Virus record (IMG/VR): IMGVR_UViG_3300025997_000005
Length of the DNA: 64,000 nucleotides
Origin: a virus
Direction: 5' to 3' (one strand)
How positions within the stretch are numbered: the first letter of the stretch is position 1; each line of letters starts with the position of its first letter. The notes under the pieces are model-generated. The model was not told where the DNA came from, ran no database searches, and was given only the letters and a program-made list of their open reading frames with translations. Below, one piece after another: positions 5,662-51,864 of this stretch. The position numbers and the translations under genes are program-made.

Positions 5662-5675
5662 CAAAAATACAACAT

Positions 5676-30418: not shown

Positions 30419-30615
30419 AAGTGCGTTGGGAAAATTCTTTTTGTTTTTCATCACAAATGTTAAATAGAAGGACTGAACTAAGGCATGGAGCATAACGGCT
30501 GCAAATATATTGTCGTTTTAATGCAATATATTTGTTGTTAGCACCAGTACGGTAATTTAAGATAAAACTTGATTAAATGGATAATAATTAGTATATTTGT
30601 AAAAAAAATAAATTT

Positions 30616-30987
30616 ATGGAAAAACAATGGAACTGGTTTGAAAAAACCAATAAAAAAGATGCAATTAAAAATGAGTTACAACCATTAATTACTGAAATGA
30701 TTAGTGATGATGTACAGTGTTTATTTATTAGCCCACAAGTTGGCGTAATTTTAGAAGAGTGTGACAATGTGTTTATAATACCTAATGATGAAATAATCCA
30801 TCATAACGAAAATTTAACCGTAGAACATTTTTTTAATTTTTATAAAAATGATGAGCCGATAAGGGTTTACATTGATAGAAACAAAGAAGATGTTGAAATT
30901 ATTGATTTTCGTGGACATAAAGAAATTGTTAATACTTTAAGAATTGGTAGTGATGGATTTTTTACAAAATATAGCAATAAACTTTAA
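30616..30987 (+). CDS. Cassette gene, hypothetical
   Basis: Own TATATTTG promoter inside body 30537-31018. Confidence 0.65.
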   Translation: MEKQWNWFEKTNKKDAIKNELQPLITEMISDDVQCLFISPQVGVILEECDNVFIIPNDEIIHHNENLTVEHFFNFYKNDEPIRVYIDRNKEDVEIIDFRGHKEIVNTLRIGSDGFFTKYSNKL

Positions 30988-31324
30988 ATCGAAGCACTTT
31001 CGTAGTATTGGTGCTAACGGTTGGGTGTATGAGAAGGTTTGCTTGTATAAACTTTCAAATTACCACACTGTTAATAGCAAACTTTCTTATACACCTTGTT
31101 ATAACCAGTACGGTAATTTAAGATAAAACTTGATTAATTGGAAAATAATTAGTATATTTGTAAAATAATGAATTATGGAGAATAGAAGAATTATTAAAGT
31201 AGAAGTTCCAAAAGAAATTTGGGATGCACATATGTCTATTTTTAATTTTAGAAAAGATATATTAGGTGCTTGGATGGAAAGCGTTAGAAAAGTAATTAAC
31301 GAAATGACATTAACAAATTAATTT

Positions 31325-31654
31325 ATGGATAATAGTTTATTAATATTTGGTAATGAAAAACAAAATTACACTTCAGATATATTTTATATTGAAAATGATA
31401 ATGTTTATTTTACCGAAGTAAATGTTTTTAAATTAAACGGAAACATCTACGCAATAGATGATACTTGTAAAGTAGATAGAAATGATATAGTTGATGGAAT
31501 TAACAATGGTGATGATGTTATAATTAAGATAGATAGTTCTTTTTTAGTTGCAGTTATAATACCAAGGAGTTTAGAAACCAAACTAAAAAACGCAATTGAT
31601 AATGAAGATTATGAATTAGCAAAAATAATAAATGATAAAATTAAAAACAAGTAA
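31325..31654 (+). CDS. Cassette gene with C-terminal UVR (UvrB/C) motif
   Basis: LKNAIDNEDYELAKIINDKI. Confidence 0.7.
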   Translation: MDNSLLIFGNEKQNYTSDIFYIENDNVYFTEVNVFKLNGNIYAIDDTCKVDRNDIVDGINNGDDVIIKIDSSFLVAVIIPRSLETKLKNAIDNEDYELAKIINDKIKNK

Positions 31655-33036
31655 AATGGAAAATTTAACAATTAAAATCACTATTAGTGATGATGAAAAA
31701 GAAATCAAAGCTACAAACATCAATGTGGGTGATTATAAAAAAACTAAAGACTTACATGGTATCTCTTTGGTTGATGAAATGGTTAATGAATTATTATCTA
31801 CAATCGAAGCGGATAAGTAGTATTGGTTATAACGTATCGGTTGTATGGTTAGTGCGATTTAATAATAATAAACTTTAATGAAATGACAGAAGCAGAGTAA
31901 ATATTCGAAAAACACATTGGGTTAAATACTGAATTAGGTTATTTGCCTTTTGAAAGACGAACCTTTTAATTATTAACCGCCCTTTTTCTTTTATTTTTTT
32001 TGAGCGTGGGCAAATGCTTGTAAAAGCAATTATTTACAAAATAATTAAAATATTTTGCTTTTTTCTTTGGTAGTTACAAAATAAGTTATATATTTGTAGT
32101 GTAATAATTAATTAATAACAATTTAAAACACAAAATTATGAAAACTTTACATTACATCTTAAACACAAAAACAGACGAAAGCTTTGATACAATAGAAATG
32201 AAATTTTATCCTAATAATTGGGAACCTGAAATGGAAGAGGATAAAGATTATTTACAAAGCTTAATTGACGAAGACCCAGAAAAATTTAAAAACTGTATAA
32301 TCGAAACAAGAACTTTTGAATAATGGCTTACTGGTTTTTAAATAAGCAAACAAAAGAGCCGAGAATATTCTCGACTCTTTGCCTGTTATGTGTGAAGAAA
32401 TTACTGAACTTGATAAGCAAAGTTTAGAGTACCATTTTAGCAGACTGAAAAAAGAAGAATTTGAAAACGATAATTACAGAATTGTTAAGCGTAATCTTGA
32501 GAGGGGTGGAAAAAAATAAAAGAAAAAGATTAGAAGCACTAAACGTTGATACAGCACGGAATTAGGCATAAACTATATACCGTGTTGTGCAATCGTTTTA
32601 ATGTTGCACAACGTTTTTCGGCTTGGTGTCTGTTATTTTGCCTTGCAGACATTTCAAGTTTTAGATAAATTTAATAGGTAAAATAATAGCACCAAACCGC
32701 TGTTAGTGGCTGGTGCGGTAAATTAAACGAAAATGAAATTTCATAAAACAAAAGATGGTAAAAAAATTAAGTTGACTGATTTAGAAACGAATCACTTGAA
32801 AAATATCATTAAATGGATTGAACGGAAAGCAAAGGAAGGATTAACGGTAGGAATGGGCGGTGGCTCGTGTGCTGAAGATATGTGGTATGATGAGGAAACT
32901 TATTATGGCAAAGAAGCTAAAAGCCAACTTAATTTTTCAGACTACAAAGCTGAATTGAAGCGGAGAGTTAGCACTTGCCACTAACGTAGATAGGCTATGA
33001 ATAGTAAGGCGATTTTAAAACACAAAACTTTGAATT

Positions 33037-33225
33037 ATGAAATGGATTAAATTAAAAGACCGAAAGCCATCTTGCGAGATTGATGGTGAAAAGATGTTGG
33101 TTTACAGAATAATGAATGAAAGCCAAGCGAGTATGGCAATAAGCATCCTTGATACGAAGATGATTAAATACAGTAATGAGGATGAAACTTGGTGGATGGC
33201 TTTACCTGATGAACCACGAACCTAA
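33037..33225 (+). CDS. DUF551-like small protein encoded inside an attC loop
   Basis: WIKLKDRKP...WWMALPDEP; lies between hairpin arms at 32982 and 33247. Confidence 0.65.
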   Translation: MKWIKLKDRKPSCEIDGEKMLVYRIMNESQASMAISILDTKMIKYSNEDETWWMALPDEPRT

Positions 33226-34494
33226 GCCTTATTATTTATAGCCTTTGTTGTAAAATCGTTTTAATGTTTTACAACGATTTGCAGCTAACCGAAGTTGGCG
33301 ATTACGAAGCACAAAACTTGAATTTAAAAAAAATGTATAATCGAAGCATAAACGTTGATATAACCACTGAACCGCCAATTTTGGTTAGGTGCTGTTATAA
33401 GCCGTTTTTCTTCACAAATTTTAAATAAAATGTATAATAAAATACCAGATAACAAAGTAAAAGAAGCTATAAAGGATTATAGTATTACCAAATTGAAATT
33501 ATTTATAGATGCAATGGATATAGCTAATGAAAAAGCAGAAAGAGGTTCAGATGTTCGTTTCCAAACTTATGATGCTAAACAAGTAGCTATCGACTTGCTT
33601 TATGAAAAGACGTGTAGTTTCTTAAATGGCTTATAACGGAAAAATGTAAAAAATCGTTGCGATATGAATGAAGAACTATTTGGAAAACTGCACGAACAAG
33701 AAGAATATGGATTGTTTGGGAAGGAACACGAACGCCAGCAATGTTTTTTACATAGTGTTAGCACCAGTGCCTACACGAAATTAAATATTAAAACTTAAAT
33801 AAAAATACAATGGCAAAAACAGTAAAATTACCCGATAACATTTCCGAAGAAGAATTAGTAAGGCTTTCTAAAATGAAAGAACTTTATATGACATACACCA
33901 ATGAAGGATTAAAAGATGATGAGTATGAACAAATGAGGCAATTAGCAGAAGAATTATCTTACTGTTTTGCTGTCGATACGAAGGTCTGATGGCATTGGTG
34001 CTAACGGTTTGCAGATAGGCGATGTGGCGGATTTTGGAACGCTGAACTATCTGTAAGCACTTAACTTGATTTGAAACACTAAACTTAATATTAACCGAGA
34101 AACCCGCCATAGTGCTGTTATGTGCTGGCCTTCTCAAAAACTCAAATAGAATGATAAACAAAATAATTGAAATCGCATTTAGTGGCTTTTGGCCATTTGT
34201 AGGAATGATGATATTACTAAACGGAGCGGCCTATTTTGCTGTAAACGGTTTGGTAAAAATGTGGAGCAGGTTTATGAGAATGTTAATGGTTAGGAAACAT
34301 GGTTGGCCGCCTATTCATTTAGATGCTGATGGCGATTGGAAACCTGAGCCAAAAGCTGACTATGACGCTAATTAGGCTTGCACATAACGGTTGCAAATAT
34401 AAAACGTTGTAACAAAAATTATAATTAGTGTAACAAAATTTGAAATTAAACGTATAATATAATTGAAAAACGACAGCAATGTTTTATATTTGTT

Positions 34495-34611
34495 GTTATA
34501 TTTCAGTTTTGGGGATGAGTTTCAGTAAAACTCCTTGAACTATTTGCCATCTGAGAAGGATGCGGTCTGAATTAACAGATACACAATGGTTTCCCCAAAA
34601 TTGAATATAAC
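34495..34611 (+). ncRNA. ORF-less cassette, putative small structured RNA
   Basis: TTTTGGGGA/TCCCCAAAA closing stem with three internal hairpins. Confidence 0.4.
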
Positions 34612-35378
34612 GTTACGCAAGTATGAAACGTGCCAACACAAACTTTGATTGAAACAATGGACATTAAATTAACATAAATATTAACTTAGATGCAGGATAG
34701 GCATGTTTTATACTTGCTGTTAGGCATCTGTAAAAATTACGGATATGAAAGACCAAGACAAACAAATGATGAAATTTAGAGCAAAAGAAGAATTGAAGAT
34801 AAAACTTCTCAAAGTTATATTAGACTATAAAAGTGAAGAAGAACCTAAATGTGAATTAACAAGCACTGATATTATTAATGTTTTATCTTCAATGATAGTA
34901 AGACAAACTGAGTAATTTTTATTGTGCCTAACGTTTTGCGTGTATATGTCAGGGGGGCGATTAGAAGCTCTAACTTTTCAATTACGCAGAAAGTTTGACA
35001 GAAGAACTAAACTTGAATAAACCACAGAACCGCCACTTGCATATACACGCTGTTAGTGGCTGGGCTTTTCACAAAAAAAATTAAAATGACAGACGAAATT
35101 AAAAGACTGAAAAAAGAACTGAAAGACTGGAAATCTCAAGAAGTTAAAGAACGATTTGAAAGAGTTAATTCTCAACTTCATCTTGTTACTATCAATGAAT
35201 TGCAACACAAAATTAAAAGATTGAAACGTGGTGAAGATATTTAGGTCGTTCTTTAGCCTTGCCACTAACGAAAAGTTTATGGCGTGTTGCGTGAACAGAG
35301 AATTAACTTAACAAATAGATAATGAAACATAGTGAAGATATTAAAATGGAAATTGGGGGTAAATTTATAAGTAAAAAT

Positions 35379-35855
35379 ATGGAAATAAGAAAATTAATAG
35401 ATAAAGTTAAAAACTTTGGTAAAACCAAAGTGTATAAATGTGTTGATGGTGTTTACGATAAAAACCGAAGTGGTGTTGATTATTTAGCGGTTAACTTAGA
35501 TTACGCTAAAAAATTCGGTGATAATTGTTATAAAATAACCATAGATACAACAAATTATAATATTCTAAAATTAGATAAATGGAATAAAATTTATAGTGAA
35601 AAAACTGGTAAAAACGGAAATAGATTTAATAGACAACAAGGATTATTCGTAATCGGTGATATAGCAATTACATCAAATTACAAAGAAGAACTTGATTTAT
35701 TTTCAAATGTTTTGGGAGAATACTTATCAAGCAAATTTCTAACTGAATTGAATAGTTGCGATGCTATTTACGGAGAAGACGCAGGATATGTAGGTGAATT
35801 TGTTTTTGCTGTAAAAAATAAAGATATGATACTTGAAATCGAAGCACTTTCGTAG
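35379..35855 (+). CDS. Cassette gene, possible ART-like protein
   Basis: VYK, YLAVNLDYAKKFG, DAI, E motifs. Confidence 0.4.
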   Translation: MEIRKLIDKVKNFGKTKVYKCVDGVYDKNRSGVDYLAVNLDYAKKFGDNCYKITIDTTNYNILKLDKWNKIYSEKTGKNGNRFNRQQGLFVIGDIAITSNYKEELDLFSNVLGEYLSSKFLTELNSCDAIYGEDAGYVGEFVFAVKNKDMILEIEALS

Positions 35856-38586
35856 TATTGGTGCTAACGTTTAGTGTATGGCAAGTAAGCCACGCACGAA
35901 ACTATCAAATTAGTACAAACTTTAATGGCTTATTTGCTATACACTTTGTTAGCATTTCGGCTTTTGTTAAACAATAATATTTAAAAATATGAATGAATTG
36001 AACGATTGGCAAACAGAAATAACAATTGATGCTTTAAATCATTATTGGCGTTATGTTGTTGAAAAACTATCTCAGACAGACTTAGGAGATATTGAACGCA
36101 AGAATTTAGAGTTAGATAAAGAAAGAACTCATTCAACTCTACGGCATCTCGGAGCATTTTAAGCTGAATGCTAACGGTTGCAAATATAAGTAGTTATTAA
36201 CTAAACTTAATTAAAAGAGTAAAAATATTATTAAACAACAATATTTATTAAAAGTAATGAAATAATTGCTTATATTTGTTGTTATAAATATGTAAAAATT
36301 ATGTATAAAAAGAAAGAACAATTTGCAGTTTATGAAAAAGAACCTGCACATGGAAAAGATAAGAATGGTGTGATACTTGCACCATATAATACAAAAGAAG
36401 AAGCAGAAACTGCAAAGAAGCAATATGGTTATGATAACGATAATTATTATGTTGATATACTTAGGTAATAATTTTTATTATTTATAACGTTTTGTAGCTA
36501 TAAGCAGTTGCCAATAAAACTGCCTAAACTTCAAATTAATAAACAATGAAAACAAGAACAAAACGGTCTTTAAATTTAAGACAAAAGTGGCAATTGCTTA
36601 TAACCACTGTTATGAGTAGTGCGGTGTTGTTAAAAGCAAATCACATTTTATTTTGGTGGTATTATAAAAGAGTTCCAAAATTCTTTCATAAATGGACAAT
36701 TTTAAAAAGTGTTACACTACTTAAGCAAAATTATGAACACGCAGAATTTAGATATGAAGGGTTAAATGAAGTTGTTAGAAATGCTTCAAAAAGGGAAAGA
36801 GAAATGACTACTGAAATTTCTAATTTAAGATTAAAATTAATGGGAGTTTCTCAAGATGTTATTGACCCTTTAAATGAAATTTTCGGAACGAATTTAAAAG
36901 GAAAATCGACTTTTGAAAGGGATAATTAGCATTACTCATAACGGTTACGTATAAGAAACGTTGCCATTTTGAAACACGAATGTTAAACTTAAAATAAACT
37001 TGATATGAAATACGAATTTAAAATTACCGATGAAGCTGGCAATGTTTTTTTATACGATGTTAGCCGTAGTTCATCTGATGAAGAAAAAAGTTTGAATGAC
37101 TTCATTTTAGAGGCATTACAGATTTCGGAAGATAAACGTAAGCTACCATTTAAAATACAATGCCCAAACAATTTAGAAGTATATCCTTTATTAAAAATGA
37201 AGTTTGAAAACTATGGTTCGCCACTGCTCGGAGATAAGCTCGAAGCAATGCACGTAACATGGCGTGATTGAATTACGGCTAACGGACGAGTGTATGAAAA
37301 TTAGCCCATACATAGGCGTTCGGAATTATTACAAAACTTAATTAGGCTATTTTTTATACACATTGTTAGAAACCTTTTTTATTATGACAGTAGTACAAGA
37401 ATTAATTGATTATATTAAAACTTATACAAGTTTGAATGACCCTTTGAGAAATAATATAGATGCAGATATTCAAATTTGGTTGAACAAAGAGAAAAAGCAA
37501 ATAGTTGATGCCGTAAATAATGGATGTAAATCTAGGTGTAATATAGATGCTCCAAGAGATGGGGAAACTTATTATAAAGAACGTTTCTCAAATGGTGGCT
37601 AACGGACGGGTATAAACCATCGTTTTAATGTGGTTTATACCTTGTTACCTGCTGGTGCGGTTAATTAACGATAAACTTAAATTAATACACAAGTTTGAAG
37701 AAAAAAGTGGTAGAACATGTGTTGAATTCAGGATATTTTCTGATGGAAGTGGAACTATAAATGAATATGATGTTGAACTTTTTTCTTTTGATACATTAGA
37801 TTACTTAATACAATGGTTGGAAGCATAATTTTTATGTTTGCTAACGAACGAGTGTATGGGTAGTTTTTGCCCGATTAAATAAAACTGAATTATGGATAAG
37901 ATTAAAGAATTAACAGACTTTTATATGTGGATGCAAGAAAATGACTATGACCACAACATAAGAGCAAGAGTTGAAAAAAAAGCAGAAATGTACTTAAAAG
38001 GTATTAACGTAGGGCAAAAATTACCTATACACAATGTTAGCAATCTTTTATGTGGCTCTTTCGACCCTGACAATAGCACAAGCAGTGCCACTAAATGTAA
38101 ATGCGGACGTGAGAAATGTGAACACCCCAAAGCCACATAATTGTTGCTAACGGCAAGGTATAAAAACAGTAGCGACATGAAAGAAAAGATAACTGAATTA
38201 ATGGAAAGATTTGATGAAGGAAACATGTGTATAAATGACCTAGAGCAAGAGCTATTGGTTTTATACAATGTTACCCCACGTTATTCTGTTTCATTGGTAT
38301 TTGTAAACGCAAGAGAAAACCTTTTGCGATGCTTAATAACTGATGCTTCAAATGAACACGAGGCTTTAGGTAAAGCACTTGACCACTTTAAAGAAGAAAC
38401 AAAAGGTTTTAATCTAAGTATGAAAGTTGTACTCCCTGCTTATAATGTGGGGTAACGGTTTGGCTATGTGCCGTTGTGAGGTACGAGCAATGGACATATA
38501 GCCGTTGTTACCATTAGTACGGTAAAATTATTACAAAACTTTTTAATATTCCTTTTGTATTTACAAATTATTTACTATATTTGCAT

Positions 38587-38842
38587 AAGTTCTTTGAGTA
38601 AACAAAACCGAAAACGTGAAAGCAACAAGATGCGGTCTATGGAGATGAGAGTTATGAAGGTTATACGCTATATAAGATAGGGAAAAAGTACGCTTTAGGA
38701 AAATAAAACCCGAACACTTGGCGAAGTGTTCAACCTAAATAAACGGTGGTGTCATAGTTATGCAGGAATTAAAACCGATGCACTGAAAAGAATGTGTTGA
38801 CAGGCTTGATAACAGGCGACTGGGCTGATACTCAAAGAACTT
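38587..38842 (+). ncRNA. Promoter-driven ORF-less cassette, putative ~255-nt structured RNA
   Basis: TATATTTG promoter directly upstream; perfect 14-bp terminal IR AAGTTCTTTGAGTA/TACTCAAAGAACTT; internal GAACACTT/AAGTGTTC hairpin. Confidence 0.55.
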
Positions 38843-39338
38843 TATTATTATAAATTAAGACAAAAAATAAAAAATAACGATATGAATGACTGAAGATACC
38901 AAACAGAAAGCAGTTAATTTATCTGTTTTGGTATTAGGAACTGAAAATATAAGCGGTTATATAAGCTACTTAATCAATAAGGCACATTTAGAAGCACAGA
39001 AGTAGTATTAATGGTAACGTATCGCAGCTAAACGCCTGTGTCCCGCAGGGCATGGCGTTTTAGGTGTTGTTATCTTCTGTTTTTGCGTGCGGTGGGAAAA
39101 TATATTTGTACCTGATTTGGTACTTCCAAATATTATGCGTACCTTTGTTGGTACAAGCACTAAAATATAAAGTTATGCTGAAATGTAAAAAATGCTCTTA
39201 TGAATTTGAAGTACCAAAGAATGCAATTGAACCTGTCTTTGCCATATACTGTAAAGCATGTATCAAAGAAGGTTTAAAAAAAATGGCTAAAATGCCGCTC
39301 AAAGAATACATGAAAATGACAGCTAAATCAATTGGACT

Positions 39339-39623
39339 ATGAATTTGACAGACGAGCAACTCAATGCCTTTCGCAAATTGTGGTTTATATACGGCAATGA
39401 CGGGGGGAAATGCACAATGCTTAACCATAAGCTGGTGCAAGGTTTTTACCAATACCACGAAGATAGGCGGGAAGCCTACCGAGAGGCAGAAAAGAACATG
39501 ACCGAACGCTTTGGTAAGGACAGCCCACGGCTGAAAGACCTCCCCACCGAAGAATGTTTTCAGGTATGCGGTTTGGTATTGGATGGAAAAATAGCTAAAG
39601 CGTTAGAAATAGCTAAAGAATGA
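39339..39623 (+). CDS. Cassette gene, hypothetical (GC-richer than surroundings)
   Basis: ATGA-coupled in a three-gene cassette. Confidence 0.7.
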   Translation: MNLTDEQLNAFRKLWFIYGNDGGKCTMLNHKLVQGFYQYHEDRREAYREAEKNMTERFGKDSPRLKDLPTEECFQVCGLVLDGKIAKALEIAKE

Positions 39624-39796
39624 AAGACTGGCTAAAAGAAAGACCTTGCCTTTCGCTTCGTTGTTTGGAACGTGAGGCAGGGCTTCCTACTAAAACCCTT
39701 AGCCATTACTTGCAGGGGAGGCGGGAATTGAATGAGCAACATCTTCAAAAGCTGACTCCTGTACTTGAGCGGTATGGGTGGGAAAGCAAAAATTGA
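39620..39796 (+). CDS. Small HTH protein closing a three-gene cassette
   Basis: LRCLEREAGLPTKTLSHYLQGRR (below the ORF-track length cutoff). Confidence 0.7.
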   Translation: MKDWLKERPCLSLRCLEREAGLPTKTLSHYLQGRRELNEQHLQKLTPVLERYGWESKN

Positions 39797-40521
39797 AGAT
39801 AACGTTAAAAATAAACGCAGAACGATGAAAGAGAAAATAGAACAGATGTACATACAGGCTTTGATAGATGACCTTGCGCCCAATGTATTCGCAGACCAAG
39901 TTTTGCGTTTATTGGGTGTTGGCACACGTACTTTCCGATTTTCTGGAATGGCAAACGGAGTGAAGTTTGTAATAAATGTACAAGCACCAAACAGGGAATC
40001 AGCTATTGCTTACTTTGAAGATGAACATCCTAAACTGAATTGGAGGACAACTACTGAAATAACGGACATTTCTTAGTATGTGTGCCAACGGTTGGGTATA
40101 TATGCAGTACCTTTGCACGAACTTTGAATATTAGTATAAACCTTAATAAGGTATTGCATATATACCTTGTTAGCAACAGTAATATTTTATGAACGAAATT
40201 AAAATCGGAGAAAATAGATTAATTCCCAAAGGAACTAAGTTTTGGTCAATCAAAAACCAAACAAATATTTTATTGGATGAAGATGCTATTGTAGAAGTAA
40301 AACATACTTGTATTGGAAGTGATGTGGTTTTTGTTGAACCAAAACAGTTGATATTTAATATGATTGGACACATACCAACATTAATAGGAAGAGGAACTGA
40401 TGAATGGGAATTAAGCTATTCCAAAACATTACCATATACTGTTCCAGAAGCACAATTCTAATTATTGTTGCTAACGTTTTGGGTATGGTTAGTTTTTTAA
40501 CGGGTAAATAAAACAGAAATT

Positions 40522-40770: not shown

Positions 40771-40936
40771 CATTTTAATTGCCTACAACGGATGGTGCTA
40801 TATGTCAGGTTTGCCTTGTAGAAATTGTCAAGTTACAACAAACTTAATGGCAAACTTGCATATAGCACGTGTTATAGCCAGTACGGTTTAATTAGTACAA
40901 AACTTTAATCGAAGAACTAAAAAAAGAATTTAAAAA

Positions 40937-42022
40937 ATGAGCGTGGGAAAAGAAAAAATAAATGTATTGAGTTTGTTTGATGGTATTAGCTGTGGACAGA
41001 TTGCGTTAGAACGACAAGGAATTGAAGTTGAAAATTACTTTGCTTCTGAAATTGAGCCATCACCAATAAAAGTAACACAAGCAAATTATCCAAATACAAA
41101 GCAATTAGGAAGTGTTTTGACTGTAAAAGGTGCTGACTTACCAAAGATTGATTTATTGATAGGTGGAAGCCCTTGTCAAGGGTTTTCATTTGCAGGGAAG
41201 CAACTAAACTTTGATGACCCAAGAAGTAAACTGTTTTTTGAGTTTGTGAGATTGAAAAACGAATGTAATCCGACTTACTTTTTATTGGAAAATGTAAAGA
41301 TGAAAAAGGAATACCAAAATATAATTTCAAGTTATTTAGGTGTAGAGCCAATAATGATAAACTCAAATTTAGTATCAGCACAAAATAGAGTTAGGTATTA
41401 TTGGACAAACATACCAGTAAAAGGATTACCAAACGATAAAACCATCCTACTAAAAGATATTACCGAAGATGGATTGCAAAGTTTAGGTTTAGCACAAAGA
41501 GGTAGATACGATGAGAATGGGAAAGTAATTCAGAAATATGAGTTGAACGGTACAGAAAAAAGCAATGCAATGACAACCGTTGCAAAAGATACTTTGCTAT
41601 TTATACCTGTTGACAAACATTCTTCAAACTCTGGATTAGTTTGCTTGGGTGGTGTAATGAAACCAACACATAAACTTTGGCTTGATAATGGAAAATTATT
41701 ACAGCGTAATTTTTCACAAGGAAATAGAGTTTATTCAAGCAATGGAAAATCAGCAACACTAAACGCAAATAGCGGTGGGATTGGTGGAAAAACGGGACTA
41801 TATGAGATTGAGGGTGTAATTAGAAAACTAACAAGATTAGAGTGTGAAAGATTGCAAACTGTACCTGATGGATATACAAACTCAATTTCAGACACACAAG
41901 CAATTAAGGCGCTTGGTAATGGCTGGACTGTGGATGTGATTTCTTTTATTTTTTCTTTTTTGAGAGGGGAAAATTTTTTAAATTCTTTTTCTTACGAAAG
42001 TTCAATCGAAGCACAAAAGTAG
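40937..42022 (+). CDS. DNA (cytosine-5)-methyltransferase (cassette)
   Basis: LSLFDG, GGSPCQ, ENV, QNRVRYYW, RLQT, LGNGW. Confidence 0.93.
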   Translation: MSVGKEKINVLSLFDGISCGQIALERQGIEVENYFASEIEPSPIKVTQANYPNTKQLGSVLTVKGADLPKIDLLIGGSPCQGFSFAGKQLNFDDPRSKLFFEFVRLKNECNPTYFLLENVKMKKEYQNIISSYLGVEPIMINSNLVSAQNRVRYYWTNIPVKGLPNDKTILLKDITEDGLQSLGLAQRGRYDENGKVIQKYELNGTEKSNAMTTVAKDTLLFIPVDKHSSNSGLVCLGGVMKPTHKLWLDNGKLLQRNFSQGNRVYSSNGKSATLNANSGGIGGKTGLYEIEGVIRKLTRLECERLQTVPDGYTNSISDTQAIKALGNGWTVDVISFIFSFLRGENFLNSFSYESSIEAQK

Positions 42023-43127
42023 TATTGGCTATAACGTGATGCAGCTAAACGCTGCGGAGCGTAGCGGAGTTGCGATTTAGGTGCTGTTATGCATCTGGTG
42101 GCGGACTTAAAAGACAAATATTATGAAAAATAAAGCAGATTACAGTAAATACGAATGCCCATACTCGCATTTAGAAAAGGAAAGTGGACACGAACTGCAC
42201 GGACCAGAAGGTTATCAAGATTGCTATGGTGTATGGTGTGCTTGTGGTTTTCGAGCACCTGTATTTTATTTAGAGCCTGATGAATTAGGACTAAAGTTGA
42301 AAAAGGAAACGGATGTAGCCACTTGTGCATAACGGGAAGTATATGCGTTCGGTTGCGATTAGAAGCACGAACGTATCAATTTAAAAGAAAACTTAATAGA
42401 ATGGAAAAAGTATCGAATAAGCACCAAACTGCAACTGACGTATATACAGTGTTACCCACCGTTTTTGATTCGGTGGCTGATGCCGTTAAAAAACTAAAAC
42501 TTGACAAAAGGCATAAATGGGAAGAGTTTTGCGGTGAATTAGTTTACCCTTACAAGTATAGCCACGCTTGTAGTGGATGTGCAGAACAAAAAGAAATGCA
42601 ACAAACACCACAAAAAGGTTGTGGATGCCATGAATGTGGATATACAGGTAGAAAGCGTGATGTAGTTCCTGTACCTGCATTTATGCCTGACGGAAGTATT
42701 GTGAAAGTACGTTCTTCAAATGGTGGGTAACGGTTGAGGCTAAAAGCAGTTGCCTATAACAAATACTGCTTGATAACACGCTTAGTTGCAATTGCTTTTT
42801 AGCCTTTGTTATAAGCTGTAAAAATTAAACTTATGAATTGGGTAATTTGGAATAAAACAAAAGACAAGTTTTGGGATGATAAAAATAAAGATTGGAGCAA
42901 TCAATTTTATGCTACAAAATTTACGTTTAAAGAACTTGAAAAGCGATTAGAAACAAAAACTTGGCTTGGTGGTGGAGATGTGATATTAGCAGTAGTAGCG
43001 GTGTATGTTTAATTTTTATTGCTTATAACGATAGGTATATGGTTTGTGCCTTTTGAAAAACGAACCTTTTAATTATTAACCGCCCTTTTTCTTTTATTTT
43101 TTTAGCGAGGGCAAAAGAACTAAAATT

Positions 43128-43430
43128 ATGAGAGGTGGATACACTTTAGACTGGAATGATAAAATGCTTTCAGAAAAGAAAATAACTAAAAGCACTTATT
43201 TGGTAAACAAAAAGTACATCGAATTGGACGATGCTTTAGATAAAGCTATTGATAAACTTAAAAAACATTATAGGAAACTATATAAAGCTGAAATTGAAAG
43301 TGCTGAAACGAAGGAAGATTTTGAAGCTATTAAAAACAAACTTCGTATGATGCCAGAATCTGTAGCTAAAGTTTTTATGTTTAGAGATATTATTTTAAGG
43401 GAGGAAGAAAAAATAAAAGAAAAAGATTAG
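43128..43430 (+). CDS. Hypothetical protein encoded inside an attC loop
   Basis: Between arms GGTATATGGTTTGTGCCT and AGGCATAAACTATATACC. Confidence 0.7.
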   Translation: MRGGYTLDWNDKMLSEKKITKSTYLVNKKYIELDDALDKAIDKLKKHYRKLYKAEIESAETKEDFEAIKNKLRMMPESVAKVFMFRDIILREEEKIKEKD

Positions 43431-43976
43431 AAGCACAAAACTTTTATACAGCACGGAATTAGGCATAAACTATATACCGTGTTGTAAAATCGTTTTAATG
43501 TTTTACAACGTTAAAGTATAACCGCTAGTTGGCGATTTAAAAGCGAAAATTATGGATAAAAAACAAAGTAAAATAAAAAGCACAGACGATGGATTAAGCA
43601 CTAAACCAGCCAATTACGGTTATACAGTGTTAGCCACCGTTTTTGAAAAGCACATACTCCATTTTGACATTGGGGATAGTGTTTATTTAAAAACAGACCC
43701 TGAACAATGTGAGAGACTTGTAACTGGTATAAATATTAGACAAAATGGAATTAGTTACGCACTATCACATTTGACAAACGAAAGCTATCACTATGACTTT
43801 GAAATAAGTAAAGAACGTGATATTGTAAAAGCCACTTCATCTTAAATGGTGGCTAACGGACAGGTATATGAAAAGTAGCCTAACCACAGACTTTGATATT
43901 ATGTACTGACCTTTCATAGGCTATTTTTTATATACCATGTTAGCCATATGGTGCGGTTTAATTAACGAAATTTAAA

Positions 43977-44489
43977 ATGAAAACATTAGTAATACATCCG
44001 AAAGATTCAACAACCGATTTCTTGTGTGAAATATACAAGGATAAAGATTGGACTGTTATCAATACAAACACATCAAAAAAAGTGTTGAAAGAACAAATAA
44101 AAGAACACGATAGAATTGTGATGTTAGGACACGGAACAGAAAAAGGATTACTTGGATTTAACAAATTTGTAATTGATTCAACGTGGGTTTATTTGTTACG
44201 TGATAAAAATTGTGTTTGTATTTGGTGTAATGCTGATGAATTTGTTATGAAATATGGATTAAAAGGATTTTATACTGGTATGATAATTTCAGAATATGAA
44301 GAAGCTATTATATGTTGTGTCCCTACAAATTCACAATGGATAGCTGAATCAAATACTGATTTTGCATTAGCAATTAAAAACTCAATTAATGATGAAAATA
44401 TGTTAGAAAAAGCAAAAATTCTATACGAAGGTAATTCTTCGGTTGTTGAATTTAATCGCAACAATCTTTATTACGAAGCACTATCGTAG
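43977..44489 (+). CDS. Cassette gene, hypothetical (MLGHG, CIWCNA)
   Basis: 170-aa ORF filling body 43939-44503. Confidence 0.75.
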   Translation: MKTLVIHPKDSTTDFLCEIYKDKDWTVINTNTSKKVLKEQIKEHDRIVMLGHGTEKGLLGFNKFVIDSTWVYLLRDKNCVCIWCNADEFVMKYGLKGFYTGMIISEYEEAIICCVPTNSQWIAESNTDFALAIKNSINDENMLEKAKILYEGNSSVVEFNRNNLYYEALS

Positions 44490-45409
44490 CACTTGTGGCT
44501 AACGGTAAGTATAAGAATAGTAGGCGATTTAAAACGCTAAACTTCGCAACCAGAAAGAGTTAATTAAATGAATATAAACAACCTACTTGCACGGACACGC
44601 CTATTGTTTTTATACATTGTTATGCGTTCGTTTTGTGCGGTGGTATAAAACTTTAAAAATGACACGAACAAAGAAACTTTACGGATTCAGATTAGGAGAA
44701 AGCATTCCAAAATGGACTGACAGATTTGGAAGAAAAGGAGGTAAAATAATTCAGTTAATTAGATTAAAATACTGTAATAAATTTCAGATACAGATAAGCA
44801 ACGGGGATATCTTGACAACTGAATTTATGATACAGGATGATTTTCATAAGCGTGGGTTGGCAAATGAGGCATAACGGATTAGTATAAACTTAGTTAAAAA
44901 AACGGAAAATTATGTACACAAGTTTTTATATAGCAGAAAGCAGACTTAACGAACTAAAATCTTTTATTAGGGTCGGTTTTTTATTTAGTCCCCTGCGAAG
45001 AAGGTCAAGCTTTAATTTCTGAAGAATTACCTACTATGAAAGATTGGTGTTTGAATATGTATGCAACTAACTTTAGTAGACGAGTGCAACCACCTAAGAA
45101 AATTAGACATTATAAAAATGCCATTAAGGATTATAGATGGGAGTACCATAGAAAAGTAGTAGCAGCAGACCACATAAGAGACTTACCAAACATTAAGGCG
45201 TTTTTAAATTGCGACTAACGTTTTGCGTGTAAGGAAATTTGCGTGCAAGTACACTGCAATTTTCAGATTAATAAATAAAAATAATTAAAAAACCAGAACA
45301 AATGGAATTAAACATAATTAGCAATTTTTACAAATCGATGTTTGCAGTAGTGCCTTTATAGAATTAAAATAAAACTTCTAGGTGAAGTTATAAAACCCAA
45401 ATAAATAAA

Positions 45410-45613
45410 ATGAATAAATTAAAACAAGCACCAATGGCTAAGTATAGTAACCAAGTGCAAACAAGTAGGGATTACTCAAAGTTTAAAACTTTGATTGGTA
45501 ACAGAAAGCCAAATGAATTGCACATTAAAAGGCTAATCAGTTCATTTAAGGAACGCTATTTATTCAGTCCAATACTTGTAAATGAAAAAATGCAAATCAA
45601 TGTTGTGCTTTAG
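45410..45613 (+). pseudogene. Truncated ParB-like N-terminal fragment
   Basis: DYSKFK.LIGNR...PILVNEKMQI, cut before the expected IDGQHR by a junction at ~45600. Confidence 0.6.
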
Positions 45614-46136
45614 TTATTTTGCGGGTTATGTAAAAATATGTTTACTTTAATTTGGTAGTTAGTAAATTTATGTTTACATTTACAGAGTAAAACAAATAGA
45701 GATGGAAACTGTAACAATAACAAAAAGAATTATAAACGGAACAGAGGTTTATAACAAAAGGTTTGATGATTATGAAAAAGGTTTTTATGGCGAAAAAATT
45801 TCTAAAAAAGAATATGAAGAAAGTAAATCTTCTAATACGCCAAAATATACAGATACAAATAAAACATTAAACATTATAGAAAGGATAACTTATGAAAACT
45901 AGAAAGAAAAAAGTTTTTACAAACTGGTGCAGAAGTTGTCATTTTGATTGGATGATTGCTGTAAGAGAAGTAAAAGGTAAAAGGTGGATGAATGTATTAT
46001 CTCACCTTGAAAACAAAGGAAATTTTAATGTTGATGATTTTAATAAAATTGAAGATTCTTGGAAAAAGATATTAGAAACAATCAATTTAATGACAGAAGA
46101 AGAAATAAGTTATTTACACAATCAAAAATACAATGT

Positions 46137-46316
46137 ATGAATTGGCACGAAAGATTTAAAGCAATGAAATCAGGGTTAGGATTAACTAACTCCGATATTG
46201 CTGGCATAACTGGTAATAGTGATGATTCTGTAAAGTCGATTACTCAACCAAATAAAGACATACCACGTTGGCTAAAACTCGCTATTGTAGTTTATGAACG
46301 GATGGTAGCAAAATAA
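46137..46316 (+). CDS. Small HTH protein closing a three-gene cassette
   Basis: LGLTNSDIAGITGNSDDSVKS...IPRW. Confidence 0.7.
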   Translation: MNWHERFKAMKSGLGLTNSDIAGITGNSDDSVKSITQPNKDIPRWLKLAIVVYERMVAK

Positions 46317-49300
46317 TTAAGCACAACGGTCTTGTATATGAAAAGTAGCGTGTAAATAAGCACATACTTTTCCGACTAAAATAACGTTATTAAATTAGTA
46401 AAGCAAATTGAGTTTAGCACTTATTTAGCTATTTTTTATATACGGTGTTGGCAATAGTTATTTTATTTTCGTATTATTAACAATAATTTAAGTCAAAAAT
46501 ATTTACTTTTGCACTCAATTTCACTTATATTAGTATTATGGAATTAAATTTTTTAGAAATGATAGACACAGATAAAAGGACAGACTTTTTGTTTCCAAAG
46601 AGAAGTTTTTGGACAGGTTTTTCTAATGTATTAAGCATTTTCGGAGAACCAAATAAATTTAACACTTCAAAATCAGGAGAAGAAGCAGACTACAAAGCTT
46701 TAAAATCCGATTGGGAAATGGTTGGACAAGATATTCGGAATGTAATGTCTGATGAAATTAAATTGTCAGACTGTGAGTAAACGAAAGGAGGATGATAATC
46801 ATTAGTGTTTTCATCAACTTTTTTATATCTAAATGTATTATTAAAATAATTTCTATTTTTATAAATCATCATTTTTTTTTCAAATGTGTGCCAACGTTTT
46901 GCGTGTAAGGAAATTTGCGTGCAAGTACACAGCAAGTTTCAGATTAATAACTAAAAATAATTAAAAAATAAAAATAAGTGATAAAATATTTGGAAATTTG
47001 ATTTAAATGTTTTATATTTGTTGTTATAAAATCGTAAAATTATGAACTTAGAAACTTGGATTGTAGTTGAAAATGGTGATATGTTTGAAGGAACACGAGA
47101 ACAGTTTATGGATTGTTTCTTTTCAAATGCAACAGATGAAGAAATTAAAGATTGGTGTTTTGATAATGGTTGGAAACTTAAAATAGGCGAAGAAACAATC
47201 TTTGCTTAATAATTTTATGTTTTATAACGGACAGGTATATGGTTAGTGCACCTACCACAAACTATTAAACTAAGCACTGACCTTCATTGGTACATTAACT
47301 ATATACAATGTTGTGTGCCGTTAATTTTAGAATTATGAGAACTGGATATTTTGCAAACACAAAAACAACAACAAAAACACATTTGGTAGATAGCAATAAT
47401 AAACCAATATGTAAAAGTAACATCAGAAATAAAACTTTTCAATGGTGTGCAAACGGTGTAATGTACTCTTACATTGAATGCAATACTTGCAAAACAAAAG
47501 CAAAACAACTATTGGAGCAAGAGGTTAAAGACCGTTTGCGTTAATGGCACACAACGATGAGGCTAAGAAACGTAGCCTTGTAATCACGTTTCAAAATAGG
47601 TAGGAACTTTATTGGCTATGTTTTTTAGCCTGTGTTACCACCAGTTAATTTAATAATTATGTTTAAAATTTACAAAGGATATTTGAAATGGAAAATGATT
47701 TCCTTAATCAAGGATAAAATAATACACTACACAGTTGAAAAAAACAATTATTTACAACGACAAAATGAATGGGAAAAGAAAGAATATAAACCAAATAGAT
47801 GTTCAGATGAAGCAAGGTTTGAAAAAGAAAAAGCAGAACAAATAAGATGGTCTAATGAACAATATAAAGTAAACCATTTTAAAGGTGAGGCTGTTTTAGA
47901 AATACTCCGAATGGTTGAGAACCTTTAATTGGTGGTAACGGGTTGTGTATGAAACGTGGTGGAATAGAAACCACATAACTATCAAATTACTAATAACTTA
48001 ATAGAATGAACGAAACTTTAAATAACGCAGAAACCCAGCATGTTTTATATTGCGTGTTGTGCGTAGTGCTTTAATAATCAAAACGATGGAACAAATTTAT
48101 TATTGGATTGGATTAGTAGTTTTTTGGCTTTCTGCAATAATTGGAAGCGTAGTAGCAGTAGGATATTTAAGTAAACTTCTACTTGATAAATTAGGTAGGC
48201 AGATAAAAACTACTTGGATAATTGTTGAGTTTGCTTATTATCGAAAAGAGTTTAAAGAGTGGGTTAAAGACAAAAAACGGCATCCGAAGTGCAAATCTTA
48301 GCATTACGCACAACGTTTTGCGTATATACAAGGTACGCCTTAACGAAATTTCAATTATAAACAAATGCTTGTAGGCGTATCTTGTATATACGCTGTTAGC
48401 AGATAGTAAAAATTACGGATTATGAAAGAAAAACATATTTGTTCTGCTACTGTAAATGACAAAACAAGTAGGCAGATTATGAGTAAAATGATAAACGGAT
48501 TTTCTGATGAAATATGTGGGTTTAATGCTAAATACTTTGAAAATAATAATTGGTATTGTGGCAAACACGCACCAAGTAAAATAGCAGAACGAGAACGAAT
48601 AAGTTATGAAAAGTGGAAAGCTAAAATTGAAGCACGAAAGCAGTAATTTTTATTTCTGCTAACGGTACGCAAGTATAAAACGTGCCAACACAAACTTTGA
48701 TTGGAACAATGAATTTGAAATTAACATAAATATTAACTTAGATGCACGACAGGCATGTTTTATACTTGCTGTTAGGCATCTGTAAAAATTACGTATATGG
48801 AACAAAAAGTAAAACACGATATTTATAAGATGCTGATACCAATAATTGGTACATGGTGGGTAATAAAGCGAATATTGCCTGATTTGGGTGAAATAACATG
48901 GTGGGATATATCTAAATATTCAATTCCATTAACATTCGGATTAGTGATGTATCAGGCGATATGTTGGATAGGGTACAAAGTGTTTTACATGATGTACTTT
49001 TTTGATTACACATTTGAACAAGTATTTACGCAATGGTAGTAATTTTTATTGTGCCTAACGGACGAGTGTATGGCAAGTGCCTACACAGAACTTAATTAAT
49101 AATACAAAATATTGAAATTATGAAACAAATTATCAAAAGAATACAAAAGGCATTTGCTATACACATTGTTAGCAAACGTTTTAAGATTGAATTTTTAATG
49201 GATGGAAATTTAGAACCATTACACACAACTTACTTGGAAGGTAAGAATAAAAATGACGTAGAAAAAAGGTTTGATAGACTTGATTTAGAAAGCAGACGAG

Positions 49301-49749
49301 ATATTGTTAGTGTAAATGTTTGCTAACGTTTTGCAAATAAAAACAGTAAAAGATATGAAACGACAAATTTTAAAAATAGCAGATGAACTTGCCAATGATG
49401 TAATAACTACGGAACAGGCAAAAAACCTTTTATTGGTTTTATTTGATGTTAGCCACAGTACTTCTTACTTAGATGATAAGTACGAGGTTAAATGGCTAAT
49501 AAATAATACATACCAAGTAGAACAAAATGGGCACTGCGTGTATCAAGGAACTGAAAGTGATTGTAATGAATGGCTTAAATGTCAGTTAGGGTATTGTGGC
49601 TAACGTGCCGAGTATATGAAATGTAGCGTGTAAACAGCCGAAAAGCAACGATTAAGAGCTGAATTAAATAAATAGAATATTAACCAAGTGGGAAGCGAAA
49701 ACAGCTATATTTTATATACTGTGTTACCCACTTTTAAAAATAGCGGTAA

Positions 49750-50052
49750 ATGAAAGCTAAACTAGAAAAATATAACGGAATTGATTACTTGACTTTTAAA
49801 GTAAATGAAGAAATTGGATTAACACAACTTCCTGTAATTACAAAAGGAACACGAGAAGGCACAAATGCTTGGACTTGGAACGGTGATTTGGAAAAACCAA
49901 CACTAAGACCAAGCGTAAGAACAGGCTACTACAATGGTAAAGAAACGACGGAAATACATTACTGGCTTAATGATGGAATTGCTGATTGCTTGGGCGATTG
50001 CAAAGATGGAAATGCAGGTAAAAAACTTGCCTTAATGGAACTCGAACAGTAG
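49750..50052 (+). CDS. DUF6527-like protein (cassette)
   Basis: WTWNGDLEKPTLRPSV, H.WLNDG. Confidence 0.7.
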   Translation: MKAKLEKYNGIDYLTFKVNEEIGLTQLPVITKGTREGTNAWTWNGDLEKPTLRPSVRTGYYNGKETTEIHYWLNDGIADCLGDCKDGNAGKKLALMELEQ

Positions 50053-50701
50053 CCATTTTTTATTGTGGCTAACGGTTGCGTGTATATTCAGGTTTGCTTG
50101 TAGAGACCTTGAATTATGCACAAATGCTGATGCAAACTTGAATATACACGTTGTTATGCTCTCGTTGCGGTAAATTTACTCAAACCCTTCAATCGAAGCA
50201 CTAAAAACATTTTTATTCTTTTGTGTGATGGGGAAAATAATTATATTGATTATCAACATATTAGAAAATATATTGAAAATATTTGCAAATTTATTAGGTA
50301 ATTTGAAACAAAAGTATTACCTTTGACGTATAAATTAATAAACAACTTAAAATTTAAAGGTATGACAAATTCAGAATTAAACAAATTATCAGTTGCTGAA
50401 CTTAGGGAGTTAAGAAATAGAGTAACTGAAATGCTTCAATTGAAAATGCAAATTGAAGGTAAATTAAACAAGGATGTTTTAAAATTTGGTATGACCGTTA
50501 AATATATTGGTGGTCGTGATAAAATTAAAAACGAAACTTTTGTAATCGAAAGAATTAACAAAGTGAATGCTGTTTGTAAAAGTAATGTAGATGGAAGACG
50601 TTGGAATATTAATATTGCAAACATTCAACCATGTGAAGATTTAATAGAAACAATGGGAGATGATAATTATGAACCAGAAAGTGGTTTCCAAAAATAAAAT
50701 T

Positions 50702-50887
50702 ATGGCAAAGCGAATATCATTAAAATTAACTGACAAAAATGATTGGTTAGTTGAAGCAATAAATAAGGAAATTGATGAAACGAATAGACCATCATTTAAT
50801 AATATGGTTGAAACCATTCTTGTTTCTTATTTTAAAGCGAAGGAAGAAAAGAATAAAAATGTTACCACAAATGCTAATTCGGAGTAG
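50702..50887 (+). CDS. Small ribbon-helix-helix protein closing a cassette
   Basis: KRISLKL...SFNNMVETIL. Confidence 0.6.
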   Translation: MAKRISLKLTDKNDWLVEAINKEIDETNRPSFNNMVETILVSYFKAKEEKNKNVTTNANSE

Positions 50888-50942
50888 TTCCTTAGCAATG
50901 GAGCATAACGGACAATAATAAACAATCGTAAAATTATGACTT

Positions 50943-51209
50943 ATGAAAAAATTTAAAGGAAGCAAACACTCACATGCTAAATGGGTGGCAGAAGAATTAT
51001 TTAATGAGATGCAAAACACAGTTGATGAAGCAGCAGAATTGTTTGCTTCTGATATTTATAGCATAGCCAAGTGTTGCTCTTATAAAGCTATTGAACTAAA
51101 TAAACTAGCAGTTCTTGACGGATGGGGTTATAAAGAGGTTTGTAATCAAACACAAGAGCAACACGACTTTTGGGAACTCGTGAAATCATATTTAGATGAC
51201 ATTAAATAA
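50943..51209 (+). CDS. Hypothetical protein encoded inside an attC loop
   Basis: Between arms at 50906 and 51230; followed by a 29-bp empty body. Confidence 0.7.
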   Translation: MKKFKGSKHSHAKWVAEELFNEMQNTVDEAAELFASDIYSIAKCCSYKAIELNKLAVLDGWGYKEVCNQTQEQHDFWELVKSYLDDIK

Positions 51210-51864
51210 TTTTATGTTGTTTATTTATTGTTGTGGTGTCGTTTTAATGCAGCACAACGTTAAGTATATGGCAAGTTGGGGATTAAAATGTGCTACCCTT
51301 TTAATTTGCAGAAAAGTAAATTAAAAGCACAAATGTAGTTTATTGGAATTGCGCCCCAATTTGCTATATACATTGTTAGGCGCAGTTATTTTTAAAATTA
51401 TGACAACAAAAAAATTAGTGAACTTAATGATGAAATCTTCTGACCACAATCCATATACTGGTAAGCTGTCAGAAAGTGCTAATGTATTGGCTGCAATAGA
51501 ACTTGCAAAAAAGTTTAAGGAATTTGCAGACGAAGTATATACAGACGAGGCAATGGGTATTGAAAGCAGCCAATGGGTTGAAGTGATAAACAAACTTGAA
51601 GAGAAGCGACTTAATTGCGCCTAACGGTTGGGTGTATATGTAGTAGTGGATAGAAAGAACCGAGCTTTGATTAACCACTGAACTTCATAGAAACAACTAA
51701 CGTTGATTTACAGATGAAACCACCATTACATATACACCTTGTTATGACCAGTACGGTTTATTTACCACAAAACTCGATTAGAACCACTGAACAAAACTTT
51801 TTAAAAATGTGCGGTGGGAAATTTAATTATGAATATTTATATATAAGATAAAGTATTTACTTAT

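What the first reader, a model, noticed from the sequence alone, without database searches (positions are those of the whole stretch)
30493..51258. Empty cassettes and empty loops share the motif TCGTTTTAATG, a candidate gene-capture site
Seen: four 29-bp gene-less bodies (32584, 33247, 43481, 51230; e.g. GTTGTAAAA-TCGTTTTAATG-TTTTACAAC) and two minimal 48-bp hairpins (30493, 37600) have the same loop. Filled bodies read stem-CGTTTT[gene]AAATG-stem (33394-33637, 42451-42731, 43629-43857, 49168-49327). Known: how integron cassettes are created is unresolved. Inference: these are pre- and post-capture states, with payload inserted in the loop of a blank cassette.
Basis: partly seen in the sequence, partly recalled or inferred. 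Interest (0 to 1): 0.88.

Follow-up and report, generated by a model that had tools for sequence, protein, structure and literature searches.

The report
Cap loop of phage cassette hairpins
An 11-letter DNA motif closes the unoccupied hairpins of an integron-like gene-cassette system in this large Bacteroidota phage and in hundreds of other phage contigs; it is real and strongly conserved, but the "empty cassettes" keep their gene in the neighbouring hairpin, and the evidence does not show that genes enter through this loop.

Summary
TCGTTTTAATG occurs six times, all on the + strand (0.11 expected). It is the loop of four 29-bp GTT...AAC hairpins and of two minimal attC-like hairpins. Public phage contigs hold over 170 distinct copies, with more than 20 co-varying stems and an almost invariant loop, so these are not ragged deletion scars.

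The capture reading is mostly not supported.
- The "empty cassettes" are not blank. The hairpin just upstream, which travels with them, is gene-sized in 69% of cases against 14% for filled ones, and in all four here.
- Only 6% of filled shells carry both half-motifs. These are one covariation class of a general junction: a closing pair, a G-T mismatch, then an inner stem.
- In three of the four cited filled bodies the reading frame starts upstream and runs through CGTTTT.
- Every gene-less GTT...AAC hairpin with an unbiased loop has a bulged T. Filled shells with the same stems lack it.
- No filled and empty pair shares both stem and flanks.

Most likely the motif is the conserved cap of the unused arm pair of a mirror-image integron-like site, served by a Xer-like recombinase. 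This scan has noted the wider system in at least 42 other genomes.

The parts
32584..32612 (+). Gene-less B-type hairpin 1: 9-bp GTT...AAC arms plus the 11-nt cap.
33247..33275 (+). Gene-less B-type hairpin 2.
43481..43509 (+). Gene-less B-type hairpin 3. Its upstream 105 nt are 93% identical to those of hairpin 1. The arms differ by compensatory changes and the cap is identical.
   Evidence: (family D20)
51230..51258 (+). Gene-less B-type hairpin 4, with one arm mismatch.
30487..30545 (+). Minimal attC-like site: R'' box, A-type arms 30501-30512 and 30524-30534 closed by the cap, then the R' box.
37594..37652 (+). Minimal attC-like site: A-type arms 37609-37619 and 37631-37641 closed by the cap. 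It is 95% identical over 67 bp to a site in megaphage LR745206.
31838..32582 (+). Gene-bearing A-type hairpin directly upstream of gene-less hairpin 1. Its loop holds a promoter-like site and ORFs 32138-32323 and 32379-32519.
32992..33244 (+). Gene-bearing A-type hairpin upstream of gene-less hairpin 2. It has 19-bp arms with two G-T mismatches, and ORF 33037-33225 lies in the loop.
43034..43478 (+). Gene-bearing A-type hairpin upstream of gene-less hairpin 3. It has 17-bp arms with two G-T mismatches, and ORF 43128-43430 lies in the loop.
50912..51231 (+). Gene-bearing A-type hairpin upstream of gene-less hairpin 4. It has a TCG...TG junction, and ORF 50943-51209 is tightly enclosed.
33394..33637 (+). 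Filled B shell with CGTTTT...AAATG. ORF 33430-33636 ends inside the 3' arm.
42451..42731 (+). Filled B shell with CGTTTT...AAATG. ORF 42401-42730 starts in the preceding hairpin loop and reads through the arm and CGTTTT.
43629..43857 (+). Filled B shell with CGTTTT...AAATG. ORF 43552-43845 starts in the preceding hairpin loop.
49168..49327 (+). Filled B shell with CGTTTT...AAATG. ORF 49120-49326 starts upstream of the arm.
53259..53528 (+).
56739..56767 (+). End of the array: the last R'' box (...AAC) abutting an attI-like AT-rich motif, 25-50 nt before the recombinase start.
56792..57601 (+). Xer-like tyrosine recombinase, 269 aa.

Best explanation
The motif is the conserved closing loop, or cap, of hairpin arms in a mirror-image, integron-like cassette system of Bacteroidota phages. 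Along the sense strand the array alternates two hairpin types. The A type has GTATA...TATAC-like arms, which correspond to the L boxes of an attC site. The B type has GTT-X...X'-AAC arms, which correspond to the R' and R'' boxes of neighbouring sites. One A hairpin and the B hairpin after it usually travel together as one cassette, and most breakpoints fall at AAC|G. Cassettes turn over at an attI-like junction just upstream of a small Xer-like recombinase gene. The gene can sit in either loop. The unoccupied loop is shut by the cap. The cap keeps the junction that all 37 filled B shells in this window show, namely a closing pair, a G-T mismatch and a T-A pair, and then turns back through about four bases. 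So the 29-bp 'empty cassettes' are the collapsed ORF slot of cassettes whose gene lies inside the attC loop, and the 48-bp hairpins are minimal attC sites. Shown here: the anatomy, covariation, strand bias, linkage and cassette turnover. Inferred: that the cap is kept by selection for snap-back folding of the sense strand as a recombination substrate, and for recognition of the junction by the recombinase.
For: All 37 filled B shells between 30.5 and 55.5 kb have perfect 9-bp arms followed by the G...T junction. The classes are AG..TT 14 (+2), CG..TG 8, TCG..TG 5 and TG..TT 7 (+1). The cap belongs to the TCG..TG class. The cap closes both hairpin types and is strand-specific, 197 against 5. 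Arms covary while the loop stays fixed. Single arm mismatches are mostly G(5')-T(3'), 20 against 5 for A-C. The flank upstream of a gene-less hairpin is followed by a gene-less hairpin elsewhere 120 times against 6. The downstream flank is preceded by something else 43 times. The upstream A loop is 200 nt or longer in 95 of 138 gene-less cases against 26 of 191 filled cases, Fisher p = 3e-25. All four cases in the window fit this. Recombinase homologues lie beside such arrays in 15 cap-selected loci. In 64 recombinase-centred loci, most by eye (18 by a strict pattern match) show ...AAC next to a conserved AT-rich motif 45-70 nt before the start codon, and caps lie 28 upstream against 1 downstream. 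Four phages with the same recombinase leader carry four different terminal cassettes, joined exactly at AAC. Polaribacter phage P12002L has an attC cluster that was reported and partly shown to recombine with IntI1 (PMC9892861). It carries two cap-closed minimal hairpins between its methyltransferase genes.
Against: Nothing here shows why the loop sequence itself is invariant: a structural cap could tolerate many sequences. The folding program leaves the 11 nt open rather than forming the proposed extra pairs. A and B hairpins sometimes assort separately, so the two-hairpin unit is a majority rule and not a law. The G-T bias fits RNA folding as well as sense-strand DNA folding.
Confidence: 0.6

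Rival explanations
1. Gene-capture site. A capped hairpin is an unoccupied slot, and payloads enter between CGTTTT and AATG, perhaps by microhomology at the accessible loop. This would create new cassettes.
For: The cap is uniform. The shell with stem GTTATAAAA and CGTTTT...AATG holds at least nine unrelated ORFs and also exists capped. The same gene family occupies either slot. For the 42451 family, homology to three non-cassette relatives starts at the V/I-F codons inside GTTTTT and ends at Q-N inside AAAT. ORFs are enclosed very tightly.
Against: With the loop left free, the 40 caps on the GTTGTAAAA stem all carry the bulged T. Only 26 of 417 filled shells carry both half-motifs. Three of the four cited bodies are read through from upstream. 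No filled shell shares both stem and upstream hairpin with a capped one. Most capped B hairpins belong to cassettes that already hold a gene. For the 33394 cassette, a non-cassette relative keeps the last 12 nt, AATG plus arm, as coding sequence. No enzyme for such insertion is known.
Confidence: 0.12
2. Excision scar. A site-specific step removes a payload precisely and always leaves the same 11 nt.
For: The loop is uniform, and filled shells exist that carry the two halves.
Against: The bulged-T discrepancy applies here too. The leaders of filled shells vary, so independent losses should give varied scars. No matched pairs were found. The halves are not direct repeats or recombinase core sites.
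Confidence: 0.06
3. RNA-level element. The hairpins fold in the polycistronic mRNA, and the loop is bound by a phage or host factor for processing, stability or translation control.
For: All copies are on the sense strand. G-T, read as G-U, is preferred over A-C. The 5' and 3' flanks of each gene pair with each other.
Against: Cassette turnover falls exactly at the conserved AAC boxes beside a recombinase. A related phage site recombines as DNA (PMC9892861). The cap's ATG rarely opens an ORF: 40 codons or more in 8%, against 26% for control ATGs. No RNA data were available.
Confidence: 0.12
4. Double-stranded 9-11-9 site of the Xer/dif or lox kind, used as duplex DNA by the recombinase.
For: It has inverted arms around an asymmetric spacer, the recombinase is Xer-like, and in 5 of 64 loci it lies next to the recombinase gene.
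Against: An 11-bp spacer is longer than the 6-8 bp of known sites (general knowledge of the family). The arms vary freely from copy to copy, which a binding site would not allow. The same loop caps hairpins with unrelated arms. The site shows no enrichment at the recombinase-proximal position: 8% there, the same as in the array.
Confidence: 0.04

Closest known systems
Integron attC sites and their variable terminal structure, including the attC cluster (CALIN) reported in Polaribacter phage P12002L (PMC9892861).
   Same: The box order is R''-L''-loop-L'-R' with conserved AAC and GTT. Each cassette's start complements the R'' of its own site. The shortest sites are about 57 nt. Stop codons often lie in R''. 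P12002L carries two cap-closed minimal hairpins, and the paper reports that one of its attC sites recombined with IntI1.
   Different: Here the short loop is nearly invariant rather than variable. The ORFs run in the opposite sense relative to site polarity. Genes can lie inside the site's loop. The recombinase is Xer-like and lacks the IntI signature. I could not confirm that the sites tested in the paper are the cap-bearing ones.
Homogeneous attC repeats of sedentary chromosomal integrons, such as the Vibrio cholerae repeats (from general knowledge).
   Same: Many sites in one array share sequence, which suggests a common origin or a common constraint.
   Different: There the whole repeat is conserved. 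Here the arms diverge and covary while only the loop and junction are fixed.
ORF-less integron cassettes (from general knowledge).
   Same: A cassette slot without a gene sits between two recombination sites.
   Different: Those are usually hundreds of bases of non-coding DNA. Here the slot is exactly 11 nt, and the cassette's gene lies in the adjoining site's loop.
pdif modules of Acinetobacter plasmids, in which genes are flanked by inverted Xer sites (from general knowledge).
   Same: Genes are bracketed by inverted recombination half-sites, a Xer-type enzyme is implied, and modules are shuffled.
   Different: pdif sites are fixed 28-bp duplex sites with an 11-6-11 layout. Here the arms are cassette-specific and the geometry is that of a folded single strand.
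Promoter-stem-loop (PeSL) regulatory cassettes of T4-type phages (from general knowledge).
   Same: Small early genes in a hyperplastic phage region are separated by repeated stem-loops, and gene swapping is modular.
   Different: PeSLs are thought to act through homologous recombination at promoter-terminator repeats. Here there are AAC and GTT core boxes, a dedicated recombinase and an attI-like junction.

Membership tests
Classical integron | IntI-type integrase with the integron-specific extra domain. | tested here: not met
   The 269-aa protein scores 72 bits on TIGR02249 (cut-off 265), matching only profile positions 9-180 of 315. Its best hit is a Xer-type model at 136 bits, below that model's cut-off of 220. 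Pfam finds PF00589.
Classical integron | attC sites: imperfect palindromes R''-L''...L'-R' with AAC and GTT cores, with the cassette start complementary to its own R''. | tested here: met
   There are 37 filled shells with perfect 9-bp complementary ends, with A-type hairpins between them. Covariation was confirmed.
Classical integron | attI site next to the integrase gene, where cassettes are inserted. | tested here: met
   A conserved ...AAC plus AT-rich motif lies 45-70 nt before the recombinase start in most of 64 loci. Four phages with an identical leader carry four different terminal cassettes joined at AAC. This is an analogous site; its function was not assayed.
Classical integron | Cassette ORFs oriented to be read from a promoter at the integrase end, with the integrase divergent. 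| tested here: not met
   The ORFs and the recombinase share one strand, and the array lies upstream of the recombinase gene. In most cases the site travels with the gene downstream of it. This is a mirror-image arrangement.
Classical integron | Recombination of folded single-stranded sites by the integrase. | not testable with these tools
   Only indirect evidence exists: G-T bias on one strand, and a literature report for a related phage site with IntI1 (PMC9892861).
CALIN (attC cluster lacking an integron integrase) | Two or more predicted attC sites with no IntI nearby, as called by IntegronFinder or HattCI. | not tested
   Those programs are not available here. By anatomy the array would probably be called a CALIN, because the recombinase is not IntI.
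Xer/dif-type duplex site | Two conserved 11-bp binding arms around a 6-8 bp spacer. | tested here: not met
   The arms are 9 bp and vary freely between copies, and the spacer is 11 nt.

The most novel reading that the evidence does not exclude
The cap marks an open payload slot. Both hairpins of a cassette begin capped, and ORFs are loaded into either loop by annealing at the short CGTTTT and AATG stretches. The capped and filled forms would then be the first visible before-and-after states of cassette genesis, an unsolved step in integron biology.
Probability: 0.12. Interest if true: 0.9.

Novelty: new variant of a known kind. Interest (0 to 1): 0.55.

Why it matters
How integron cassettes are made is unknown. 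This system is unusually legible on that question. Each gene is pinched between arms of known geometry. The same arms occur with many different ORFs or with none. The gene-less state is one fixed 11-nt sequence found in hundreds of phages and in Bacteroidota genomes. Even if the loop is only a structural cap, it gives a defined element to mutate in recombination assays with a small Xer-like recombinase. It also corrects the picture of "blank cassettes": these cassettes have two alternative gene slots. An isolated phage, Polaribacter phage P12002L, carries the cap, so experiments are possible.

Tried and rejected
1. I first saw a gene-less hairpin directly before the recombinase gene in 7 of 15 loci and suspected it was part of attI. 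An unbiased recombinase-centred sample gave 5 of 64, or 8%, close to the 4 of 41 B hairpins that are gene-less in this window's array, so the enrichment came from how the loci were chosen.
2. The cap's ATG as a start codon: rejected. The median ORF is 8-13 codons, and 8% reach 40 codons against 26% of control ATGs.
3. G-rich direct motifs at payload borders as a general loading site: they are strand-biased (258 against 51) but lie at both borders in only 3 shells.
4. Same-flank filled and empty alleles: none among 119 gene-less hairpins. None share both stem and upstream hairpin among 207 filled and 216 gene-less forms.
5. No close relatives of the window: no whole genome is held, megablast to phage records gave only a 67-bp hit, and the recombinase search gave one distant locus.
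7. Rfam found only tRNAs.
8. Megaphage LR745206 has just two caps and no recombinase homologue.
Full report
**Setting.** The window is AT-rich (about 30% G+C). It carries nine tRNA genes, two sigma-70 paralogues, DNA methyltransferases, an IS605-type TnpB and mostly small + strand genes, so it is a large Bacteroidota-type phage. No whole genome is held. A protein look-up indicates a source contig of about 162 kb.

**The observation.** TCGTTTTAATG occurs six times, always on the + strand, against 0.11 expected. Four copies are the loops of 29-bp hairpins whose 9-bp arms start GTT and end AAC. Two are the loops of short hairpins that sit between an ...AAC box and a GTT... box. All six fold as described. 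The four cited filled bodies, plus a fifth at 53259, read stem-CGTTTT...AAATG-stem.

**Anatomy of the array.** Between 30.5 and 55.5 kb a script found 37 gene-holding segments, each flanked by a perfect 9-bp inverted repeat GTT-X...X'-AAC (B-type hairpins). These alternate with hairpins whose arms resemble GTATA...TATAC (A type).
- This is the box order of an integron attC site, R''-L''...L'-R'. Each cassette's first bases complement its own R''.
- After the 9-bp arm, every filled shell continues with one closing pair, a G opposite a T, and then 3-7 further complementary bases. These often include the stop codon.
- The classes AG..TT, CG..TG, TCG..TG and TG..TT differ mainly by covariation of the closing pair.
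- The cap is the TCG..TG junction with almost nothing inside it.
- A-type hairpins show the same junction.

- Of 179 non-redundant 29-mers, 137 have perfect arms and 37 have one mismatch, most often G(5')-T(3').
- Forty-six distinct arm pairs give 96.6% pairing against 70.3% in shuffles, and 123 double changes against 35.
- With the arm fixed and any 3-30 nt loop allowed, 40 contexts have the exact loop and three differ by one base. Everything else is an unrelated singleton.
- The motif is sense-strand specific, 197 against 5, and caps A-type hairpins as well.
- It also occurs in a 634-kb megaphage beside methyltransferase genes, and in Polaribacter phage P12002L, whose attC cluster was reported in PMC9892861.
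- In bacterial genome records, 55 of 123 hits have complementary arms. Most are Bacteroidota, including a Formosa chromosome with a six-shell array.

**What the unit is.** The 90 nt upstream of a gene-less hairpin, when found elsewhere, are again followed by a gene-less hairpin 120 times against 6. The 90 nt downstream are preceded by something else 43 times. So in most cases the hairpin travels with the A hairpin before it, and most breakpoints fall at AAC|G.
- Homologues of the window's recombinase (56792-57601; PF00589; Xer-like, not IntI) lie in 15 of the cap-selected loci.
- In 64 non-redundant recombinase-centred loci, most by eye (18 by a strict pattern match) show ...AAC abutting a conserved AT-rich motif 45-70 nt before the start codon. 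Caps lie 28 upstream against 1 downstream.
- Four phages with the same leader have four different last cassettes, joined exactly at AAC.
- This is an integron-like system read in mirror image. It agrees with earlier notes of this scan on this genome and on at least 42 others.

**The "empty cassettes" are not blank.** All four in the window directly follow an A hairpin whose loop holds a gene. Across the loci, the A loop before a gene-less B hairpin is 200 nt or longer in 95 of 138 cases. Before filled B shells the figure is 26 of 191, with a median of 81 nt (p = 3e-25). A cassette therefore has two slots, and the unused one is capped. Units with both slots capped are rare, about 3 of 138.

**Tests of capture.**

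For:
- The loop is uniform.
- The shell with stem GTTATAAAA and CGTTTT...AATG holds at least nine different ORFs and also exists capped.
- The gene of the 43629 body has homologues at 55% and 53% identity that sit in an A loop followed by a capped B hairpin in L069 and L109.
- The 42401 protein family has three non-cassette relatives. Their homology starts at the V/I-F codons within GTTTTT and, in one of them, ends at Q-N within AAAT.

Against:
- Only 26 of 417 filled shells carry both halves.
- In three of the four cited bodies the ORF starts in the preceding A loop and reads through the arm and CGTTTT.
- On the GTTGTAAAA stem every cap found with the loop left free has the bulged T. Yet a complete IMG/VR scan for the stems GTT[AG]TAAAA followed by TCGTTTT and a non-A base found only 2 genuine shells among 90 hits.
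Simple insertion or excision would keep the T.
- No filled shell shares both stem and upstream hairpin with a capped one. Where the upstream hairpin is shared (L094 and L038), the whole B hairpin differs, arms included.
- The 33430 gene has a non-cassette relative in L007 whose last 12 nt equal AATG plus the 3' arm. There, homology runs through the supposed boundary.

**Reading.** The best-supported view is that the motif is a conserved cap. It keeps the recognised junction and lets the unused arm pair snap shut on the sense strand. Why its sequence is invariant is not explained. Capture remains possible but unsupported, at about 0.12. An RNA-level role cannot be excluded. The anatomy, statistics and turnover are shown here. 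The folding-substrate role and recombinase recognition are inferred.

Noticed in passing
window 42401-42730, 43552-43845, 49120-49326: ORFs start in the A-hairpin loop and read through the L' arm, the R' arm and CGTTTT. In two of them the arms are translated as YTVL[P/A]TVF. In 12 of 16 homologues of the first, the same stretch is kept.
   Followed up: partly
window 43085-43102 and 43408-43425; also 31990-32010 and 32511-32530: There is a third, nested layer of pairing inside gene-bearing A loops: a T-run before the gene and a complementary A-run after it. A G-rich word of the GAGCGnGGGCA type is repeated directly at both inner borders. The word is strongly sense-strand biased, 258 against 51.
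   Followed up: partly
L007, about 11340-11560 in the orientation used: A homologue of the 33430 gene lies in a plain operon without hairpins, yet keeps the last 12 nt (AATG plus the 3' arm) as its C-terminal codons. Either it is a former cassette gene, or cassette arms can derive from a gene's own end.
   Followed up: partly
L243, L298, L299, L300 (recombinase upstream regions): The 70-nt recombinase leaders are identical but the last cassettes are four different ones, joined at AAC. This is direct evidence of recent cassette turnover at the attI-like site.
   Followed up: yes
L365 (Formosa sp. A9 chromosome) and L399 (Gillisia contig with a recombinase homologue): The same shell architecture, including a capped hairpin, occurs in bacterial genome records. 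Whether this is a prophage or a chromosomal array was not determined.
   Followed up: partly
L275 9600-11000 (megaphage LR745206): Two cap-closed minimal hairpins bracket DNA methyltransferase genes in a 634-kb phage that has no recombinase homologue, which looks like an acquired mini-array.
   Followed up: partly
L092 about 7732, L111 about 6954, L008 about 6007: Some capped hairpins have a 3' arm followed by a T-run instead of AAC-G, so they look like terminators. They may mark array ends.
   Followed up: no
window 8169-8386 and 27546-27763: A 218-nt repeat is present in two copies at 97% identity. It contains a hairpin with the loop TCGCTTTAGCG, and a third, weaker copy lies at 2336-2403. 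Its function is unknown.
   Followed up: no
window 22840-24072 (-): An IS605-type TnpB (OrfB_IS605, Cas12f-like TNB domain) is the only long gene on the minus strand. It lies just before the cassette region.
   Followed up: no
window 4609-5484 and 20730-21584: Two sigma-70 family paralogues are present, 73% identical over the first 300 nt. A tRNA cluster lies at 2999-5662 and one more tRNA-Lys at 58633.
   Followed up: no
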